NCBI GenBank assembly: GCA_035543335.1
Contig: DASZZH010000038.1
Coordinates: forward strand, 6,950 to 70,949
Source of the DNA: Burkholderiales bacterium
Lineage (GTDB): Bacteria; Pseudomonadota; Gammaproteobacteria; Burkholderiales; JAHFRG01
DNA: 64,000 nucleotides
Direction: 5' to 3'
Shown: piece by piece, positions 46,132-53,256 of the stretch
Layout: the number at the start of each line of letters is the position of its first letter
Position numbering within the stretch: the first letter of the stretch is position 1
Notes under the pieces: generated by a model
The model's input: the letters and a program-made list of their open reading frames with translations, nothing else
The model's database searches: none
Told to the model about the DNA's origin: nothing
Made by a program: the position numbers and the translations under genes

Positions 46132-47508
46132 ATGGCAATGATTCCCAAAGAAATTTTCAAAGCCTACGACATCCGCGGCATTGTCGGCAAAACACTGACT
46201 GCGGAAATCGTCGAAGCCATCGGCGGGGCTATCGGCTCCGAGGCACGGGCAAAAAAACAAAAAACCATCGCCATCGGCCGCGACGGCCGTCTTTCCGGAC
46301 CCGAATTATCCGAGGCGCTGGCAAAGGGAATCCAAAAAGCCGGCATCGATGTGATAGACATCGGGCTATGCGCAACGCCGATGCTCTACTTCGCTACCCA
46401 TCACCTGCAAACGCACTCCGGCGTCATGGTGACCGGTTCGCACAACCCGCCCGATTACAACGGCCTCAAAATCGTCATCGGCGGCGAGACGCTCTCCGGC
46501 GAATCCATCCAAAAGCTCAGGACACGCATCGAGCAAAATGACTTAAGCGATGGCAAAGGCAATTACGCCGAAAAAACCGTCACTGAAGATTACATCGCCC
46601 GGATCAGCAGCGACATCAAGCTTGCGCGGCCGATGAAAATCGTGGTGGATTGCGGCAACGGCGTGCCCGGCGCCTTCGCGCCCAGGCTTTATCGCCAGCT
46701 TGGCTGCCATGTCCGGGAATTGTTTTGCGAGGTGGATGGCAGTTTTCCCAACCACCATCCCGATCCCTCGCAGCCTGAAAATCTCAAGGATGTGATTCAG
46801 GCGCTCAAAACCACCGATGCCGAAATCGGCCTGGCATTTGACGGCGATGGCGACCGGCTGGGCGTGGTCACCAAAGACGGGAAAATCGTCTATCCCGACC
46901 GCCAGTTGATGCTGTTCGCCGCCGACATGCTTTCGCGCAATCCGGGCGCGGAGGTTATTTTCGACGTGAAATGCACCCGCAACTTGTTTCCGTGGATAAG
47001 CGAACGCGGCGGAAAACCCATCTTGTGGAAAACCGGCCACTCGCTGATTAAGGCGAAAATGAAGGAAACCGGCGCGCTGCTCGCCGGAGAAATGAGCGGG
47101 CACATTTTCTTCAAGGAGCGCTGGTACGGCTTTGATGATGGTCTTTATGCCGGCGCGCGGCTTTTGGAATATTTGAGCCACCAGCCCGATATTAATGCAA
47201 CGCTCGACAGCCTTCCCGATTCGGTAAACACCCCCGAGCTGCAGCTGAAACTGAAAGAAGGAGAAAACTACGCGTTGATTGAAAAACTGCAAAAAACCGC
47301 GCGTTTCAAGGACGCAAAAGAAGTAATTACGATTGACGGCCTGCGGGTGGAATTCGCCGACGGTTTCGGCCTCGCCCGCTCCTCCAACACCACGCCGGTG
47401 ATTATTTTCCGCTTCGAAGCGGACAATCCAAAAGCCTTAAAGCGCATTCAGGAAGATTTTCGCCGAGTCGTCCTGCATGCCAAGCCTGGTGTGGTCCTGC
47501 CGTTTTAA
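46132..47508 (+). CDS. algC: Phosphomannomutase/phosphoglucomutase
   Basis: [21 protein letters not shown] and GEMSGH motifs. Confidence 0.93.
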
Positions 47509-48512
47509 CCCAAAACGGCGTCCAGCGGACTTACCACTCCTCGCCCACCCTTGTTCAGTACGTGAGTGTAGATCATCGTAGTGCTGACATCCTGATGCCC
47601 GAGCAGTTCCTGCACCGTGCGGATGTCGTAGCCGTTTTGCAACAGATGGGTCGCAAAAGAGTGGCGCAAGGTATGACAGCTTGCGGGCTTGTTGACCCCC
47701 GCTTTCCGCACAGCCTCCTTGATCGCCCGTTGCAGGATGTTATCGTACAAATGGTGACGACGAATTACCCCCGTCTCCGGCTCCGCCGATAACCGCATCG
47801 AGGGAAATACGTACTGCCATCCCCATTCCCGCCCGGCGTTGGGGTACTTCCGCCCCAGTGCGTAGGGTAGCGCAACCTCCCCGTAACCCGCGGCAAGGTC
47901 CCGCCCGTGCAACGCCTTCACCTTTTCCAGGTGGCGCTTGAGCGGCTCCACCAGGTTCTGCGGAAGCATCGTCACCCGGTCCTTCGCGCCCTTCCCGTCG
48001 CGGACGATGAGCTGGCCGTACCCGAAATCAATGTCCTTCACCCGCAGCCGCAGGCACTCGCTGAGGCGTAGCCCGCACCCATAGAGCAGGCTCGCCATCA
48101 ACCATTTCGTGCCGTCCAGTTGGGCCAGAACCGCCTTGACCTCGGCACTAGTAAAGACCACAGGAAGCCGCGCGGGCTGCTTTGCGCGTTGCAGGTTGTC
48201 CAGCCACTGCAATTCCTTCCCCAATACCTCCTTGTACAGGAACAGGACTGCGCACAGAGCCTGGTTCTGGGTAGACGCTGCAACCTGCCGCTGCACAGCC
48301 AAGTGGTTAAGAAATTCAGTCACCTCCCGCTCCCCCATGGTAGCGGGGTGACGTTTGTTGTGGAAATAGATGAACCGCTTCGTCCAATGCACGTACGCTT
48401 GCTCTGTTCGGCGACTGTAGTGCCGGACTCGAATGGCGCTCCTCATCTGATCGAGAAGCCTGGGCCGAGGGAGTTCCGAGGAAGAAACGATCATGTTCGG
48501 GTCAGAATCCAT
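47505..48512 (-). CDS. intI: Integron integrase (tyrosine recombinase)
   Basis: [31 protein letters not shown] and TMIY, plus the integron-specific insertion [21 protein letters not shown]. Confidence 0.97.
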
Positions 48513-48660
48513 AGGACGGCGCCTTTCATATGTGTTATTCGGCTTTGGTATACATAACGGATTGATTCATGTGCAGGATGACATGCGCGCATAAATGGTT
48601 ACGCCTACAACTCGGGCCATCACTACACGGACCCGCCCCCGGGGCGGTCGTCCCGAAAGC

Positions 48661-48775
48661 CCCTTTCATTCGCGTTATCCGGCGAGGGTATTCATAGCGC
48701 ATTGATTTTGATGTAGGATGACATGCACGTATAAATAGTTACGCCGACATTTCGGCCGTTCAATTCACGTTAGCC
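48661..48775 (+). promoter_or_regulatory. attI region with crossover G|TTAGCC at 48769 (probably includes Pc)
   Basis: GTTAGCC is complementary to the GGCTAAC R'' box of the first attC, as expected for a cassette integrated at attI. Confidence 0.75.
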
Positions 48776-48798
48776 ATTCCGAACGAGGACTTCGCACT

Positions 48799-49554
48799 AT
48801 GGATGATCATTCACACTTGGACGCGAAGTACTTTCTCGGAATAGATATATACAACTGTCCGTTCTGTAATCGACGGCATGTTAAGTACCAGATCATGGGG
48901 CGCAGCCAGTTTAATTGGTCGAATCACAAGGTTTGCGAGATTTGGCGCGTGAGATGCGCAAGCTGTGAAAAGACCTCCATGCACCTCACCTTTCAACAAT
49001 TGCAAGATCCCAACTACAGCGGCTCCTCGCGATTTCGTGATGACGTAGATCTTGATAAGGCATTTTTCTATTCCGTGCCGACGTCATTCTTTGTGGTGGA
49101 CAGTCGAATTCCGCGTGTAATTCGGGAGCTCATTACAGAAGCGGAAGGATGCGCCAAGATGAACTATCTAACGGGCGCGTCTGCATGCACTCGAAAAGCA
49201 ATATATGAACTTCTCTCTCTTCAGAAAGCTGAAGGGGCGAATTACGATGACAAAATAAAATATGTAGCATCCAAGCACCCTGCTGTCGACGCCGAGCTTT
49301 TCGAAATCCTTGGTCACATTAAAGACATGACCAGTGATCATGTCCACGAACAGAGTTGGATCGCATGGGACAGCAAACACCTTCAACTTTTCTTGGAAAC
49401 ATTCAAAGCGGTACTGCATGAAATTTATGTTGTGCCCGACGAGAAAAAGAGCAGAGCGGATTCGGTGCGTGCGCTTCGCGAACAACTTGGTAAAGCAAAG
49501 TCAGACGGAATCGCATCCTCTATTCCTGCAAAAGGGGAAGCGGAGAATGGCTAA
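48799..49554 (+). CDS. Cassette 1: Zn-ribbon plus DUF4145 (HEPN-like) protein
   Basis: CPFC...CASC; IRELITEAEGC...ASACTRKAIYE...IKDMTSDHVH; visibly AT-richer than the flanks. Confidence 0.65.
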   Translation: MDDHSHLDAKYFLGIDIYNCPFCNRRHVKYQIMGRSQFNWSNHKVCEIWRVRCASCEKTSMHLTFQQLQDPNYSGSSRFRDDVDLDKAFFYSVPTSFFVVDSRIPRVIRELITEAEGCAKMNYLTGASACTRKAIYELLSLQKAEGANYDDKIKYVASKHPAVDAELFEILGHIKDMTSDHVHEQSWIAWDSKHLQLFLETFKAVLHEIYVVPDEKKSRADSVRALREQLGKAKSDGIASSIPAKGEAENG

Positions 49555-49614
49555 CCCGGCAGTCAACCGGACCTGCGCGAATAACGGCGCAGGCCGGTTA
49601 CTTCGACGTTCGGC
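49549..49614 (+). other. attC site 1 (66 bp)
   Basis: GGCTAAC...aaccggacctgcgc/gcgcaggccggtt...GTTCGGC. Confidence 0.9.
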
Positions 49615-49685
49615 ACGTTGCTGCGCATGCTGTGCCGAGAAGTGACCGAGATAATTGAGACAGAACCTTGATGACGGAGCAGTCA

Positions 49686-50201
49686 ATGAATGTAACGATT
49701 ATCGTCGCTATTGTCGCTCTGGTATCAACCATCATAGGCGCGACCATCGGCGCAGCAACAACCTATATGCTCTCCGTGAGACGTGAGCGTGCAGACAAGG
49801 AAAGAGACGACCGCAATCACGCCGTCGAGGTCAAGCGGGCAGCGCGCTTAATTGGCTTGGACCTGTTGTGGGCGCGGACGGCGGCAAACTACTGGGTCGA
49901 GGAGAAGACATGGTCTCATCCAGATGTGCCAATACTCTCACTCTCGACCGAAGCGCGGCAGAAGTATCTCGACACCATTGCTACGGACCTATCCGAGGAC
50001 GCTTGGAACTCCGTCACAACGGCGCTTCAGTCGGCAGACAGCATCAGAGTGATCCTCGGAAGGCCGAGGGATCAAGCCATCGCTATTCCCGACGACGTGG
50101 CTGAGGCGTTCGTTCCATTGATAACCCGCATCGACAAGGGATGTCGTGACCTGGGTCTATACCACTTTGATCTCCAGGCGGCCGGTAAATCGACACAATG
50201 A
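49686..50201 (+). CDS. Cassette 2: N-terminally membrane-anchored hypothetical protein
   Basis: Hydrophobic N-terminal helix followed by a charged helical region; GGAG SD before ATG 49686 (ORF track starts at 49668). Confidence 0.7.
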   Translation: MNVTIIVAIVALVSTIIGATIGAATTYMLSVRRERADKERDDRNHAVEVKRAARLIGLDLLWARTAANYWVEEKTWSHPDVPILSLSTEARQKYLDTIATDLSEDAWNSVTTALQSADSIRVILGRPRDQAIAIPDDVAEAFVPLITRIDKGCRDLGLYHFDLQAAGKSTQ

Positions 50202-50215
50202 CCGCTTTACTGAGA

Positions 50216-50277
50216 GCCGAACAACGCCATGCACCCGACGCGCAAAGGACGCGCGCGGGTGATGGCTGGCGTTAGAC
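50216..50277 (+). other. attC site 2 (62 bp)
   Basis: GCCGAAC (complement of the preceding GTTCGGC)...palindromic core...GTTAGAC. Confidence 0.9.
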
Positions 50278-50301
50278 ATGCTCTTTACGATTGGAGAACA
50301 C

Positions 50302-50718
50302 ATGAGATTCACTGCGCTCTTAATCTGCGCACTGCTCTTATCCGGCTGCGTAACGATGGGGAGGGAAATTACCGAAGAACAGCTGGCCGGATTCAAGAAG
50401 GGTGAAACGACAGTCCAAGACGTTACTTCTAAGCTCGGCACCCCGACGTCGAGTTCTGTCACTGCGACCGGGCAACGGACACTCTCTTACATGTTTGCGC
50501 ATTCGCAGGCACGGCCTGGGACATTCGTTCCGATTATTGGTCCCCTCATCGGAGGCGCCGACACTCGTTCGAGTATGGTGATCTTTATCTTCGGAGCCGA
50601 CGGAAAGCTCCAAGACTTTCATGCGTCACAAAGTCAGCTCGGCTCCGGCTTTGGTGCGGCGGCCGGGCAGTATCAACCGCCATATGCGGATCAACCGAGT
50701 GAGGCTCCGCGAAAATGA
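50302..50718 (+). CDS. Cassette 3: lipoprotein with SmpA/OmlA-like domain
   Basis: Lipobox LSGC; FKKGETTVQDVTSKLGTP. Confidence 0.7.
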   Translation: MRFTALLICALLLSGCVTMGREITEEQLAGFKKGETTVQDVTSKLGTPTSSSVTATGQRTLSYMFAHSQARPGTFVPIIGPLIGGADTRSSMVIFIFGADGKLQDFHASQSQLGSGFGAAAGQYQPPYADQPSEAPRK

Positions 50719-50722
50719 GCAT

Positions 50723-50818
50723 GTCTAACCCCGCGTTCGAGCGGAGCGCCCGTCAGCGTCGCTGCCGGGTGCTCTCGTCGCTTCGCTCCTCGGCGCCGGC
50801 TCAACGCGAACGTTGGGC
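50723..50818 (+). other. attC site 3 (96 bp)
   Basis: GTCTAAC...cgcgttcgagc/gctcaacgcg...GTTGGGC. Confidence 0.9.
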
Positions 50819-50860
50819 CGCATAGACATGAAGCCGATTTGAGTTTTTTGGAGACCAGGG

Positions 50861-51253
50861 ATGCACTGCACAAAATGCGGCACAGTGGCACTAGCTAACG
50901 CAAAGTTCTGTGCGGAATGCGGTAGTCCCATCAGTGATTCTTCGTCGGAGAAAGACATTGAAACTCCAAAGGCTCCAGTGGTCGCCGCAACGCGAAAGGT
51001 CATTTCACTTTACATTCTTGGCATTCTCATGGCCTTTGGCTATGCGTTCCTCTTCATTCAAGCGAGCGCTGGCCAAAACGTCCCGCCGCAAATTGGCTAC
51101 GGCTATATATTCTGGACCGGCGTCCTCTTCTACTATTGGTGGAAGCAGCGTGCCCGCAAAGGCTGGCGCGGTGCGTTGATCGGCACAATAATCGCGCTTG
51201 TCGCGTTGTTCGCGGCGGGTTTTATCGTTGGCGTCGTAGGCCATGGCAAATAG
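50861..51253 (+). CDS. Cassette 4: zinc-ribbon membrane protein (about three TMs)
   Basis: CTKCG...FCAECG followed by three hydrophobic segments. Confidence 0.75.
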   Translation: MHCTKCGTVALANAKFCAECGSPISDSSSEKDIETPKAPVVAATRKVISLYILGILMAFGYAFLFIQASAGQNVPPQIGYGYIFWTGVLFYYWWKQRARKGWRGALIGTIIALVALFAAGFIVGVVGHGK

Positions 51254-51286
51254 GTCTGTGCTGACAACCATCCCATTGGCAATGCG

Positions 51287-51353
51287 GCCCAACCCATCAT
51301 TCCACCGGACCTGCGCGAAAAGCCGCGCAGGCCGGTGAATTCCAACGTTGGGC
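51287..51353 (+). other. attC site 4 (67 bp)
   Basis: GCCCAAC...caccggacctgcgc/gcgcaggccggtg...GTTGGGC. Confidence 0.9.
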
Positions 51354-51380
51354 CCCACTAGAGAGCACGCCGCATTGCCG

Positions 51381-52247
51381 ATGAAGTCCGCTCTGTTTGG
51401 AATCGGTATCGTTGTCGTATCGTTCGTCGCGGCAATTGTTGCGGCGTCCGCTGCGTGGGTTTTTTGGGACGCCTGGAAAGCGTCGGACCGCGATGCATTT
51501 CGCGCGCTCGTTGGTGCTTTTTCCGGTGCCTTCTTCGCGTACGTGTTCGTGCGATTCGCTGATGGCTTTAAGAAGGTCTACGACCGCAAAGAGAAAAATC
51601 ACACGGCCCTAGTGCGGCTGCAGCATTACATCAATGACTGTCTAAACATCACGAGCGACAACCTGTTTATCGCTGATGACTGCGTGAAAGTCTTCAACGA
51701 ACAACGGCTACAGGCTGGCGAACTCTCGATCTACATGAACGTTTTTCATGAGTATCCGATCGATCGAGAGCTTTTGATCGGGCTAACGAATATCAAGTTT
51801 TTGAATGAGGTGTATTCGCTGAATGTCGAGTTCAGCAAACTGAATGACTCTATGGCCACCGTTGATCGTGCATACGCACAGGTAAGGGATGCATTCGTCG
51901 CAAAGCACTTTGATGAGGCGGTCTATCTATTGAATGCTCGCCGCACCCGTGAGCGTTGTGTAGAACTTAGAGGTTACTTGCTTCAAACCAAGCAGGAGCT
52001 CATTCGTCTTTTTGCAGTGACAAATTTGTTGCTAAGAGATCCGCCTTTTCTCGTGCGCGTAATCCGTTCCCTTACGCAGACCGCCTACCCGAAAGACTTC
52101 GACGCAGCTCTCGGCCCAGAGGTTGCTCGTGTAACGTCAGAAATGGAAGGCATTGCACAGGCGAGCGCACAACGAATACTGGCCGCGCAGAATAGTGTGG
52201 CCCAACCACCCGGTGCAGCGGACGCGGCAAAAGCGCCGCGCCGCTGA
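51381..52247 (+). CDS. Cassette 5: hypothetical protein with two N-terminal TMs and a helical domain
   Basis: 288-aa ORF from ATG 51381; the stop codon lies inside the attC. Confidence 0.75.
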   Translation: MKSALFGIGIVVVSFVAAIVAASAAWVFWDAWKASDRDAFRALVGAFSGAFFAYVFVRFADGFKKVYDRKEKNHTALVRLQHYINDCLNITSDNLFIADDCVKVFNEQRLQAGELSIYMNVFHEYPIDRELLIGLTNIKFLNEVYSLNVEFSKLNDSMATVDRAYAQVRDAFVAKHFDEAVYLLNARRTRERCVELRGYLLQTKQELIRLFAVTNLLLRDPPFLVRVIRSLTQTAYPKDFDAALGPEVARVTSEMEGIAQASAQRILAAQNSVAQPPGAADAAKAPRR

Positions 52248-52261
52248 CCGAGACGTTAGCG
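52200..52261 (+). other. attC site 5 (62 bp)
   Basis: GCCCAAC...cggtgcagcgg/ccgctgaccg...GTTAGCG. Confidence 0.9.
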
Positions 52262-52271
52262 GTCATCATCA

Positions 52272-52766
52272 ATGCAGCACCTCATCGATGCCACACGATC
52301 TGCCTTAGGCCAAGAAAACTGGTATGCGGCTTTGGCGCTTGCTCTTTCCTTACCGGACATCTGCGGGCGGCTCGAGAGCCCGGGCGCAGGATCGCAAGCG
52401 CGCTTCGTGGCGTGGTACGACAGGTTCTTGTTGTCTCGGTACCAGTCGCACATTGGTCCAGACCGCACGCTCCATACGTTTTTGTCGGGTCAAGATTGCT
52501 ATGCCCTTCGCTGCGCGTTCTTGCATCAGGGTGAATTTGGGATCGATGACCAACGTGCGCGGCATGCGCTAGAGCGTTTCCACTTCACGGCGCCTCGGCC
52601 TGGCTTGGTTGTACACAACAATCAATTTGGCAACATGCTCCAATTGCAAGTTGATTGCTTTTGCCAAGACGTTTGCGAAGCAGTCGAAGCTTGGCTCGCT
52701 TCCGTTCAAGGCAACCCCGACATTCAGGCTCGAGCGGCGATGCTCGGCCAGGTGCACGATTCATGA
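52272..52766 (+). CDS. Cassette 6: putative HEPN-domain protein
   Basis: Helical protein with ALALSLPDICG and an RxxxxH motif (RCAFLH). Confidence 0.6.
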   Translation: MQHLIDATRSALGQENWYAALALALSLPDICGRLESPGAGSQARFVAWYDRFLLSRYQSHIGPDRTLHTFLSGQDCYALRCAFLHQGEFGIDDQRARHALERFHFTAPRPGLVVHNNQFGNMLQLQVDCFCQDVCEAVEAWLASVQGNPDIQARAAMLGQVHDS

Positions 52767-52767
52767 C

Positions 52768-52854
52768 CGCTAACCTTTTGTTGCTGCGGACGGGCGGCCA
52801 ACGGCGTACCAGAGAGGCTGTCATCGCAGCCCGCCGCAGAACAACACGTTAGCA
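52768..52854 (+). other. attC site 6 (87 bp)
   Basis: CGCTAAC...tgttgctgcggacggg/cccgccgcagaaca...GTTAGCA. Confidence 0.88.
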
Positions 52855-52882
52855 GCAGGGGATTTCATTGTGCGAAGTAAAT

Positions 52883-52947
52883 GGGGTCAGTGTAAGATTT
52901 CTACATCAAACGCGGACCTCGCCCAGCGGAAAAGTTACACTGACCCC
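52883..52947. repeat. Perfect 13-bp inverted repeat with 39-bp spacer
   Basis: ggggtcagtgtaa (52883-52895) and ttacactgacccc (52935-52947). Confidence 0.8.
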
Positions 52948-53032
52948 GTATTTCTTCCGTTTTTCTTTAAAACATTTCGGCACTGATCTGTGTACGTAGC
53001 TATCAACCCTCACGACACTGCTGGTTTGGGTG

Positions 53033-53253
53033 TCCCCTGTGAGCCGCCGAGGTTTGGTGGGCAAATTGAGGGGAAGTCGGCGAGCACTGTCCGAGCACGC
53101 GGCCGCGAAGCGGACCGTGTGAGTTGCGCAGCCGCCCAATTTACCACCAAACCGAGGGCACCCCAGAGGGGCGGTGAGCCGGGGCGGCTTTTTCTTTGGT
53201 GACTTTCTTTTGGCCGCGCAAAAGAAAGTCACCAGCCGCCGGGCTGCCCCCGG
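53033..53253. repeat. Dispersed non-coding repeat, copy 2 (hairpin-ended family)
   Basis: Same ends as 22002-22235; internal long stem ggtttggtgg.caaattg/caattt.accaccaaacc. Confidence 0.85.
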
Positions 53254-53256
53254 CAC

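What the first reader, a model, noticed from the sequence alone, without database searches (positions are those of the whole stretch)
47505..52854. Sedentary integron with six uncharacterised cassettes, a candidate anti-phage arsenal
Seen: an intact IntI and six ORFs, each closed by an attC whose R'' heptamer exactly complements the GTT heptamer opening that cassette (GTTAGCC/GGCTAAC, GTTCGGC/GCCGAAC, GTTAGAC/GTCTAAC, GTTGGGC/GCCCAAC twice, GTTAGCG/CGCTAAC). The array sits between algC and alaS with no transposase, and no cassette looks like a resistance gene. Known: integron cassettes have been shown to encode phage-defence genes. Inference: two HEPN-like proteins, three membrane proteins and a lipoprotein fit a set of single-gene defence or exclusion functions.
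Basis: partly seen in the sequence, partly recalled or inferred. Interest (0 to 1): 0.8.

Follow-up and report, generated by a model that had tools for sequence, protein, structure and literature searches.

The report
Chromosomal integron with candidate anti-phage RNases
A bacterium carries an intact gene-capturing integron holding six swappable gene cassettes, two of which likely encode RNA-cutting proteins that would stop phage infection; the system is real but of a known kind.

Summary
The integron is real. It has an intact IntI (499 bits, cut-off 265; about 56% to IntI1), an attI at 48769 and six attC sites. A covariance model built from 18 foreign attCs finds exactly these six in 64 kb. 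Cassettes 2 and 5 recur in other runs with boundaries at the predicted crossovers. 'Sedentary' holds only loosely: no intact intI in 9 congeners, integron relics at this site in 3 of 5 informative ones, an empty site in 2. Defence is plausible for two cassettes. Cassette 1 has the zinc-ribbon plus HEPN build of RAZR/PD-T7-4, with Lys where RAZR needs Arg. Cassette 6 is an unnamed Rx4H protein common in prophage accessory slots. Cassette 3's relatives also sit in moron slots. Cassettes 2, 4 and 5 have no support beyond the published base rate (18% to one third). New member of a known kind; interest 0.45.

The parts
46132..47508 (+). Flanking housekeeping gene: phosphomanno/glucomutase (algC-like); its stop overlaps the intI stop by 4 bases
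47505..48512 (-). Integron integrase IntI, intact, own lineage (best 72% to any found, about 56% to IntI1)
48519..48629 (+). Upstream copy of the 111-nt attI head; the crossover position reads G|GACCCG, so it lacks the GTT core
48659..48775 (+). Downstream copy of the head = attI, crossover G|TTAGCC at 48769/48770; GTTACGC lies 31 nt upstream (32 nt in attI1)
   Evidence: X8 match ends at 48773
48799..49554 (+). Cassette 1 ORF (cassette 48770-49608), 251 aa: Cys4 zinc ribbon plus HEPN/DUF4145-fold domain, RAZR/PD-T7-4-like, K175-x7-H183
49549..49614 (+). attC1 (66 nt)
49686..50201 (+). Cassette 2 ORF (cassette 49609-50271), 171 aa, one N-terminal membrane helix plus helical domain, unnamed family
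50216..50277 (+). attC2 (62 nt)
50302..50718 (+). Cassette 3 ORF (cassette 50272-50812), 138 aa lipoprotein, weak BamE-like, phrog_3135
50723..50818 (+). attC3 (96 nt)
50861..51253 (+). Cassette 4 ORF (cassette 50813-51347), 130 aa, N-terminal zinc ribbon plus membrane helices
51287..51353 (+). attC4 (67 nt)
51381..52247 (+). Cassette 5 ORF (cassette 51348-52255), 288 aa, two N-terminal membrane helices plus soluble domain, unnamed family; frame ends inside attC5
52200..52261 (+). attC5 (62 nt)
52272..52766 (+). Cassette 6 ORF (cassette 52256-52848), 164 aa, R80-x4-H85 HEPN-like solo protein, phrog_18591
52768..52854 (+). attC6 (87 nt), end of array
52883..53256 (.). Not part of the integron: a palindrome (52883-52947) and a dispersed repeat (53021-53256) with copies elsewhere in the genome
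53257..55857 (-). Flanking housekeeping gene alaS

Best explanation
This is a complete chromosomal integron: an intact integrase gene, an attI head and six attC-bounded cassettes between algC and alaS, which likely stores anti-phage genes among others, with cassettes 1 and 6 predicted to be single-protein HEPN RNases that would shut down an infected cell. Shown by calls: the anatomy, the cassette boundaries, recurrence of cassettes 2 and 5 in other flanks, the zinc-ribbon plus HEPN fold of cassette 1, the conserved R80/H85 of cassette 6 and its prophage distribution. From established integron biology: IntI recombines folded attC bottom strands, excises cassettes and reinserts them at attI, where expression is highest, so cassette 1 is the newest and likely the best expressed. 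Inferred: cassette 1 works like RAZR (the zinc ribbon binds a phage protein, the HEPN dimer is switched on and cuts RNA; about 0.5). Cassette 6 works like a solo abortive-infection HEPN such as HepS (about 0.55). Cassette 3 may act in superinfection or entry exclusion at the envelope (about 0.3). Cassettes 2, 4 and 5 stand at the base rate (about 0.2 each). IntI cannot be under canonical LexA control, since neither a box nor a lexA gene was found.
For: Integron. Cassette mobility: cassette 5 at about 98% in runs X5 and X6 (two other studies), with matches starting at 51345 and ending at 52256/52257 and other sequence beyond; the start of cassette 2 identical in X12 from 49604; the platform at 98.6% in X8 ending at 48773 with 26 other bases. 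Cassette 1: model pLDDT 85; top matches mostly HEPN structures, best 5yep Z 11.2, rmsd 2.8, 111 aligned; PD-T7-4 hit by 47 of 67 family members, best E 5e-8; DUF4145 by 13 of 67; C20, C23, C53, C56 and H183 conserved; K175/H183 are 8 apart like RAZR R146/H154 (PMC13017515). Cassette 6: R80 invariant and H85 in at least 90% of 99 rows; R and H in 80 of 80 viral loci; 115 viral contigs and 44 phage records; neighbours mark Q-to-holin, lysis-to-terminase and integrase slots; no conserved partner, largest neighbour cluster 13 of 297. Cassette 3 relatives lie between tail chaperone and tape measure, just before tape measure and between cI and N; the first is the HK97 gp15 exclusion slot (PMC3594210). 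Base rate: 18% of tested cassettes (10.1101/2024.07.02.601686), at least one third (10.1101/2024.07.02.601719).
Against: No cassette is a clear hit to a described system: cassette 1 itself scores only E 1.7e-4 on PD-T7-4 (7), and 0 of 99 cassette-6 family members hit PADLOC at E<=0.01. Cassette 1 lacks the catalytic Arg: K in 119 of 120 close homologs; Q 33, H 10, K 9 of 75 remote rows, R in about 3 by eye; in RAZR the Arg is essential. The tool warns that Z under about 13 can be a common helical arrangement, and Foldseek found nothing at E<=0.001. The cassette-6 fold match is weak (best Z 5.7; 63, 58), and the Arg was in one of the four search patterns. Cassette-1 neighbours are not significantly enriched for defence genes (13 of 101 vs 4 of 58, p 0.29; 5 vs 0 at E<1e-30, p 0.16). 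No cassette-1 relative was found in viral contigs or plasmids. No consensus sigma-70 Pc was found. Nothing was tested at the bench.
Confidence: 0.68

Rival explanations
1. A real integron whose cassettes are general stress, dormancy or envelope genes with no anti-phage role; the HEPN-like proteins act as stress-induced RNases or are inactive.
For: Most tested cassettes gave no phage phenotype in the published screens. PMC3710099 proposed dormancy roles for integron HEPNs. Cassette 1 lacks the Arg (27, 109), its neighbourhood test was not significant, and cassettes 2, 4 and 5 have no link to defence.
Against: The cassette-6 family is common in prophage accessory slots without a partner. Cassette 1 matches the build and, remotely, the profile of a validated defence protein.
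Confidence: 0.25
2. The platform is not an old resident but a recent horizontal arrival at an algC-alaS hot spot that integron heads colonise and lose again.
For: No intact intI in 9 congeners; the site is empty in G001 and G002 and in a contig of a relative in X4 that joins 47487 to 52981 (106); no algC or alaS beside intI in 94 related loci apart from one distant 32% paralog, though many loci are short; the platform is about 98% identical in runs of two other studies.
Against: G008 has a convergent intI 3' relic at the same position (81% over residues 297-327) with three attCs and other cassettes. G003 and, weakly, G006 have an attC at the alaS edge in the same orientation. No transposase or direct repeat was seen.
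Confidence: 0.4
3. The whole array is a dedicated anti-phage arsenal with all six cassettes defensive.
For: Membrane proteins made up about a third of validated mobile-integron defence cassettes.
Against: No evidence for cassettes 2, 4 and 5; at the odds given above, all six is under 1%.
Confidence: 0.02

Closest known systems
Sedentary chromosomal integrons as defence biobanks (Darracq et al., 10.1101/2024.07.02.601686; Vibrio cholerae)
   Same: Chromosomal intI-attI-attC anatomy; promoterless single-gene cassettes of unknown function; HEPN-like (Taranis, Esos) and membrane cassettes among their validated systems
   Different: Six cassettes, not hundreds; heterogeneous attCs of 62-96 nt; intact intI not shared across the genus; no lexA in the host; duplicated attI head; several integrases and orphan heads in one genome
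Mobile-integron phage resistance cassettes, BRiCs (Kieffer et al., 10.1101/2024.07.02.601719)
   Same: Short array of mixed attCs; small unknown and membrane cassettes
   Different: IntI only about 56% to IntI1 and not grouped with it; no plasmid or transposon context; no resistance genes
RAZR / PD-T7-4 (PMC13017515)
   Same: Cassette 1: N-terminal Cys4 zinc ribbon plus C-terminal DUF4145-type HEPN, His eight residues after the basic residue, single gene
   Different: Only remote profile similarity (E 1.7e-4); Lys or Gln instead of the essential Arg; a family-specific S-x3-H-E motif and conserved R132; trigger and ring assembly untested
HepS, prophage solo HEPN (PMC13043305)
   Same: Cassette 6: single small protein, Rx4H motif, no partner gene, carried in prophage accessory slots
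   Different: No sequence or clear fold link shown; 164 aa with beta-hairpin inserts; unnamed family (phrog_18591)
Phage moron exclusion proteins such as HK97 gp15 (PMC3594210)
   Same: Cassette 3 relatives occupy the same tail-operon slot and the cI-N slot; envelope-located
   Different: BamE-like lipoprotein, not shown to be related to gp15; position is the only link

Membership tests
Complete integron | Intact integron integrase with catalytic residues | tested here: met
   TIGR02249 499 bits vs 265; motifs located
Complete integron | Array of attC sites with R''/R' boxes and folded bottom strand | tested here: met
Complete integron | attI next to intI | tested here: met
   G|TTAGCC at 48769; aligns with other heads; X8 match ends there; recombination itself untested
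Complete integron | Pc promoter | tested here: inconclusive
   No consensus sigma-70 site on the + strand
Complete integron | IntI-mediated excision and insertion | not testable with these tools
   Indirect only: cassettes 2 and 5 in other flanks
Sedentary chromosomal integron | Chromosomal, no mobile element around it | tested here: met
   Housekeeping flanks; no transposase in 31 of 58 ORFs scanned
Sedentary chromosomal integron | Presence conserved across related species | tested here: inconclusive
   Relics at the site in 3 of 5 informative congeners, empty in 2; intact intI in 0 of 9; draft genomes
Sedentary chromosomal integron (Vibrio type) | Large array with species-typical, uniform attC | tested here: not met
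   6 cassettes, attC 62-96 nt and unlike each other
Class 1 mobile integron | IntI near-identical to IntI1 | tested here: not met
   About 56%; apart in the quick tree. Classes 2-5 were not placed in the tree; the best plasmid hits among 5000 records were all under 60%
SOS-controlled integron | LexA box at Pint and lexA in host | tested here: not met
   No box with at most 1 mismatch; lexA family in 0 of 10 genus genomes, control rang in 9 of 14
RAZR/PD-T7-4 (cassette 1) | N-terminal Cys4 zinc ribbon | tested here: met
   C20, C23, C53, C56 conserved; beta-rich N-domain in model
RAZR/PD-T7-4 (cassette 1) | C-terminal DUF4145/HEPN fold | tested here: met
   Z 11.2, rmsd 2.8, 111 aligned to 5yep, with most top rows HEPN; DUF4145 in 13 of 67 members; helical-bundle caution applies
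RAZR/PD-T7-4 (cassette 1) | Catalytic Arg and His (R146/H154) | tested here: not met
   His kept; Arg position is K175, mostly K or Q in the family (27, 80, 109); K175 aligns over the R of a canonical DUF4145-type motif in a low-probability alignment
RAZR/PD-T7-4 (cassette 1) | Family-level sequence membership | tested here: inconclusive
   E 1.7e-4; 47 of 67 members at E<=0.01, best 5e-8
RAZR/PD-T7-4 (cassette 1) | Activation on a ring-shaped phage protein | not testable with these tools
   Needs experiment
HEPN RNase (cassette 6) | Rx4-6H motif conserved | tested here: met
   R80/H85
HEPN RNase (cassette 6) | HEPN helical fold | tested here: inconclusive
   Best Z 5.7; top rows are HEPN or related folds but within the noise range
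HEPN RNase (cassette 6) | Dimer with composite active site | not tested
HepS family (cassette 6) | Homology to HepS | tested here: inconclusive
   No PDB sequence hit at E<=5 (45); HepS not among the 50 rows shown

The most novel reading that the evidence does not exclude
Cassette 1 founds an arginine-less branch of RAZR-like sensors, with a rebuilt HEPN site (R132 plus S-x3-H-E), and cassette 6 an undescribed prophage-borne solo abortive-infection RNase. Both are traded through a LexA-free host in which two intact integrases act in trans on about a dozen dispersed attI heads, the tandem head here being a snapshot of how such heads multiply.
Probability: 0.15. Interest if true: 0.72.

Novelty: new member of a known kind. 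Interest (0 to 1): 0.45.

Why it matters
Defence cassettes have been validated in Vibrio and clinical class 1 integrons. This environmental integron gives two concrete, cheap-to-test candidates from unnamed families. A positive result for cassette 1 would show that a RAZR-like HEPN works without the canonical arginine. A positive result for cassette 6 would give a function to a family found in over a hundred viral contigs. An intact integrase in a LexA-free genome with many orphan attI heads also makes non-SOS control and action in trans testable.

Tried and rejected
Rfam found nothing real. Sequence searches of the PDB with the cassette 1 and cassette 6 alignments and with a phrog_1305 protein found nothing; the RAZR structures (9Y9C, 9Y6U) did not appear in any sequence or fold list, so no direct comparison was possible. 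Foldseek on the PDB gave nothing at E<=0.001 for either model; the viral library gave one unnamed hit for cassette 1. The Atlas gave only unnamed clusters for cassettes 2 and 5. No relatives of cassettes 1, 2 or 3 were found in viral contigs, none of cassettes 1, 2, 4 or 5 in plasmids, and none of the ECP1 gene in E. coli genomes. The cassette-6 family was found in 1 of 400 class genomes besides G000. The defence-neighbourhood test was not significant, and its control came from one housekeeping window. The attC scan on cassette-1 homologs found 5 of 67 readable loci, all among the 18 at 65% identity or more; for cassette 6 it found 1 of 80. The careful IntI tree did not finish in two runs, so only the quick tree is used. 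The cassette-6 dimer job gave no verdict; it was still queued. No RNA holder was listed. In X4 and X8 the listed algC and alaS pieces differ by about 10% while the platform is about 98% identical; the tables are cut, so this is not taken as evidence of another host. A contig break in X3 exactly at attI (48742-48771) may mark a second first cassette, but the other branch was not shown and X3 may be the source sample. G006's attC passes the model (E 8e-4) but not the folding test (z -0.4). G008:C5 has attI-like heads but no attC hit. The idea that 48738 is the crossover was rejected: other heads align their GTT with 48769. My note that position 175 is 'never R' was corrected on reading. A search for papers holding 'integron', 'attI', 'duplication' and 'two attI' listed 5, none on this arrangement by title or abstract start; this one search does not show that it is unpublished.
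Full report
Observation. The window lies in G000 (2.25 Mb, 41 contigs, 98.5% complete). The IntI of a same-order genome is identical to that of Methylobacillus arboreus, which places the host in the order holding Methylophilaceae (Burkholderiales in GTDB, recalled). The ORF 47505-48512(-) scores 499 bits on TIGR02249 (cut-off 265), has its catalytic motifs, and is convergent on an algC-like mutase gene with a 4-base overlap. Six attCs lie at 49549-49614, 50216-50277, 50723-50818, 51287-51353, 52200-52261 and 52768-52854. Their bottom strands fold at z -2.6 to -6.6. Each cassette's core and inverse core match over 7-13 bases. A model built from 18 attCs of other genomes, picked by my own heuristic, finds these six and nothing else at E<=0.1 in 64 kb.

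The cassettes move. Cassette 5 occurs at about 98% in runs X5 and X6 (two other studies), with matches ending at 51345 and 52256/52257 and unrelated sequence beyond. The start of cassette 2 is identical in X12 from 49604. X8 holds the platform at 98.6% up to 48773, followed by 26 other bases. X4 holds intI and the heads at 98.3%, and a contig of a relative that joins 47487 to 52981, an empty site. X1-X3 may be the source and are not counted.

A 111-nt head is present twice, 140 nt apart and 76% alike. The downstream copy ends in G|TTAGCC and is the attI; the upstream copy reads G|GACCCG. The upstream copy sits 117 nt from the intI start, close to the median of about 107 in 35 of 74 related loci where a head motif was found; the working copy is 257 nt away. 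Both copies carry GTTACGC 31 nt before the crossover, against 32 nt in attI1. No consensus Pc was found. No LexA box was found, and the lexA family is in 0 of 10 genus genomes (the count includes unpublished G007). PMC3108266 reports that LexA loss is the norm in soil and freshwater integrons and correlates with integrase inactivation, so an intact IntI here is mildly notable. The genome also has an intact IntI on C23, a frameshifted one on C25 and a fragment on C41, 35 attC hits, and ten further attI-like heads without an intact intI beside them, 9 of them with an attC within 3 kb. I found these in the same turn in which the scan's notes showed similar patterns in other genomes; those notes are not support.

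Sedentary? None of 9 congeners has an intact intI. In G001 algC and alaS are 8 bases apart, and G002 has a 626-base gap without attC. G008:C119 has a convergent intI relic (81% over residues 297-327), three attCs, other cassettes and two heads with 209 of 230 aligned bases identical. G003 and weakly G006 have an attC at the alaS edge. G004, G005, G007 (unpublished) and G009 are uninformative. The IntI has no close relative (72% at best) and does not group with IntI1 in the quick tree of 88 rows. In 94 related loci (one from unpublished G035) only a distant 32% mutase paralog was seen. The site is thus an old genus-level hot spot with gains and losses, not a fixed Vibrio-type superintegron.

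Cassette 1. It has 1470 homologs and 381 clusters at 50% identity. The model (pLDDT 85) has a beta-rich Cys4 N-domain and a helical C-domain whose best matches are mostly HEPN proteins (Z 11.2, rmsd 2.8, 111 aligned), with the tool's caution for helical bundles. PD-T7-4 is hit by 47 of 67 members (best 5e-8) and DUF4145 by 13 of 67. RAZR (PD-T7-4) has this build and needs R146 and H154 (PMC13017515). Here H183 is kept (120 of 120; 66 of 75 remote rows), but the residue eight before it is K in 119 of 120 and mostly Q in remote rows, R in about 3 of 75; R132, S179 and E184 are conserved instead. It works like RAZR by build but fails a defining feature. Attached attCs are seen only in close homologs (5 of 18 at 65% or more, 0 of 49 below). 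Neighbours include TIR effectors, DrmD, BrxL and a REase, but 13 of 101 vs 4 of 58 control ORFs is not significant.

Cassette 6. It has 355 homologs, with R80 invariant and H85 nearly so in 99 rows. The model is confident (pLDDT 93.7), but the fold match is weak (Z 5.7, HEPN-type rows on top). PADLOC and Pfam give no family; PHROGs gives phrog_18591 (9). Relatives are in 115 viral contigs and 44 phage records, R and H in 80 of 80 loci read, with no conserved partner. They sit between Q and holin, after lysis genes, or beside integrases (82, where 91 of the immediate neighbours were scanned). This is the profile by which HepS was picked (PMC13043305), so solo abortive infection is my reading, untested.

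Cassettes 2-5. Cassette 3 is a lipoprotein with relatives in 16 phage records and 123 plasmid records, 95 of them conjugative. Phage copies sit between tail chaperone and tape measure, or between cI and N (131-133); the former is the slot of the HK97 gp15 exclusion moron (PMC3594210). This is position only. Cassettes 2, 4 and 5 are membrane proteins of unnamed families with no defence link.

Papers seen. 10.1101/2024.07.02.601719: part 1 of 5 and passages. 10.1101/2024.07.02.601686: part 1 of 8 and passages. PMC13043305: abstract and section 5. PMC13017515: abstract, passages and section 7. PMC3108266, PMC3710099, PMC3594210 and 10.64898/2026.03.17.712381: passages. No supplements were read. 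The cassette sequences of the integron screens are in files I did not see, and PADLOC here dates from 2023, so cassettes 1 or 6 could be relatives of systems named since.

Verdict. A genuine chromosomal integron, a new member of a known kind. At least one cassette is anti-phage with odds near 0.8 (my estimate), the best candidates being 6 and 1. Interest 0.45.

Noticed in passing
window 48519-48629 and 48659-48769: Tandem duplicate of the attI head, 76% alike; the upstream copy lacks the GTT core. Sequence spanning both copies recurs at about 98% in runs of two other studies.
   Followed up: partly
G000 contigs C6, C9, C26, C31, C33, C36: Ten attI-like heads without an intact intI beside them, 9 with an attC within 3 kb; 35 attC hits in a 2.25-Mb genome with two intact integrases.
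   Followed up: partly
G000 and 9 congeners: No lexA found in any of the 10 genomes although recA and recX lie just beyond alaS.
   Followed up: partly
L045 (G008:C5) and L038 (G008:C119): G008 has two algC contigs: one followed by two attI heads of the window's type with a duplicated algC 3' end between them, the other by an intI relic with two heads of another type.
   Followed up: partly
window 52200-52247: The cassette 5 reading frame runs about 47 bases into its own attC before it stops.
   Followed up: no
window 52883-52947 and 53021-53256: A palindrome and a dispersed repeat with partial copies on 8 contigs lie between the array and alaS; the repeat is also present at the empty site in X4.
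   Followed up: partly
L231:4101-4910: In a viral contig a phrog_1305 protein (the family that cassette 1 also hits) lies directly upstream of a cassette-6 homolog.
   Followed up: no
L052 4001-4447 (Escherichia phage ECP1): An unannotated cassette-6 homolog sits between the lysis and packaging regions; a ready coliphage-borne test case.
   Followed up: no
window 48742-48771, run X3: Contig break exactly at the attI crossover, possibly a second first cassette in the same sample.
   Followed up: no
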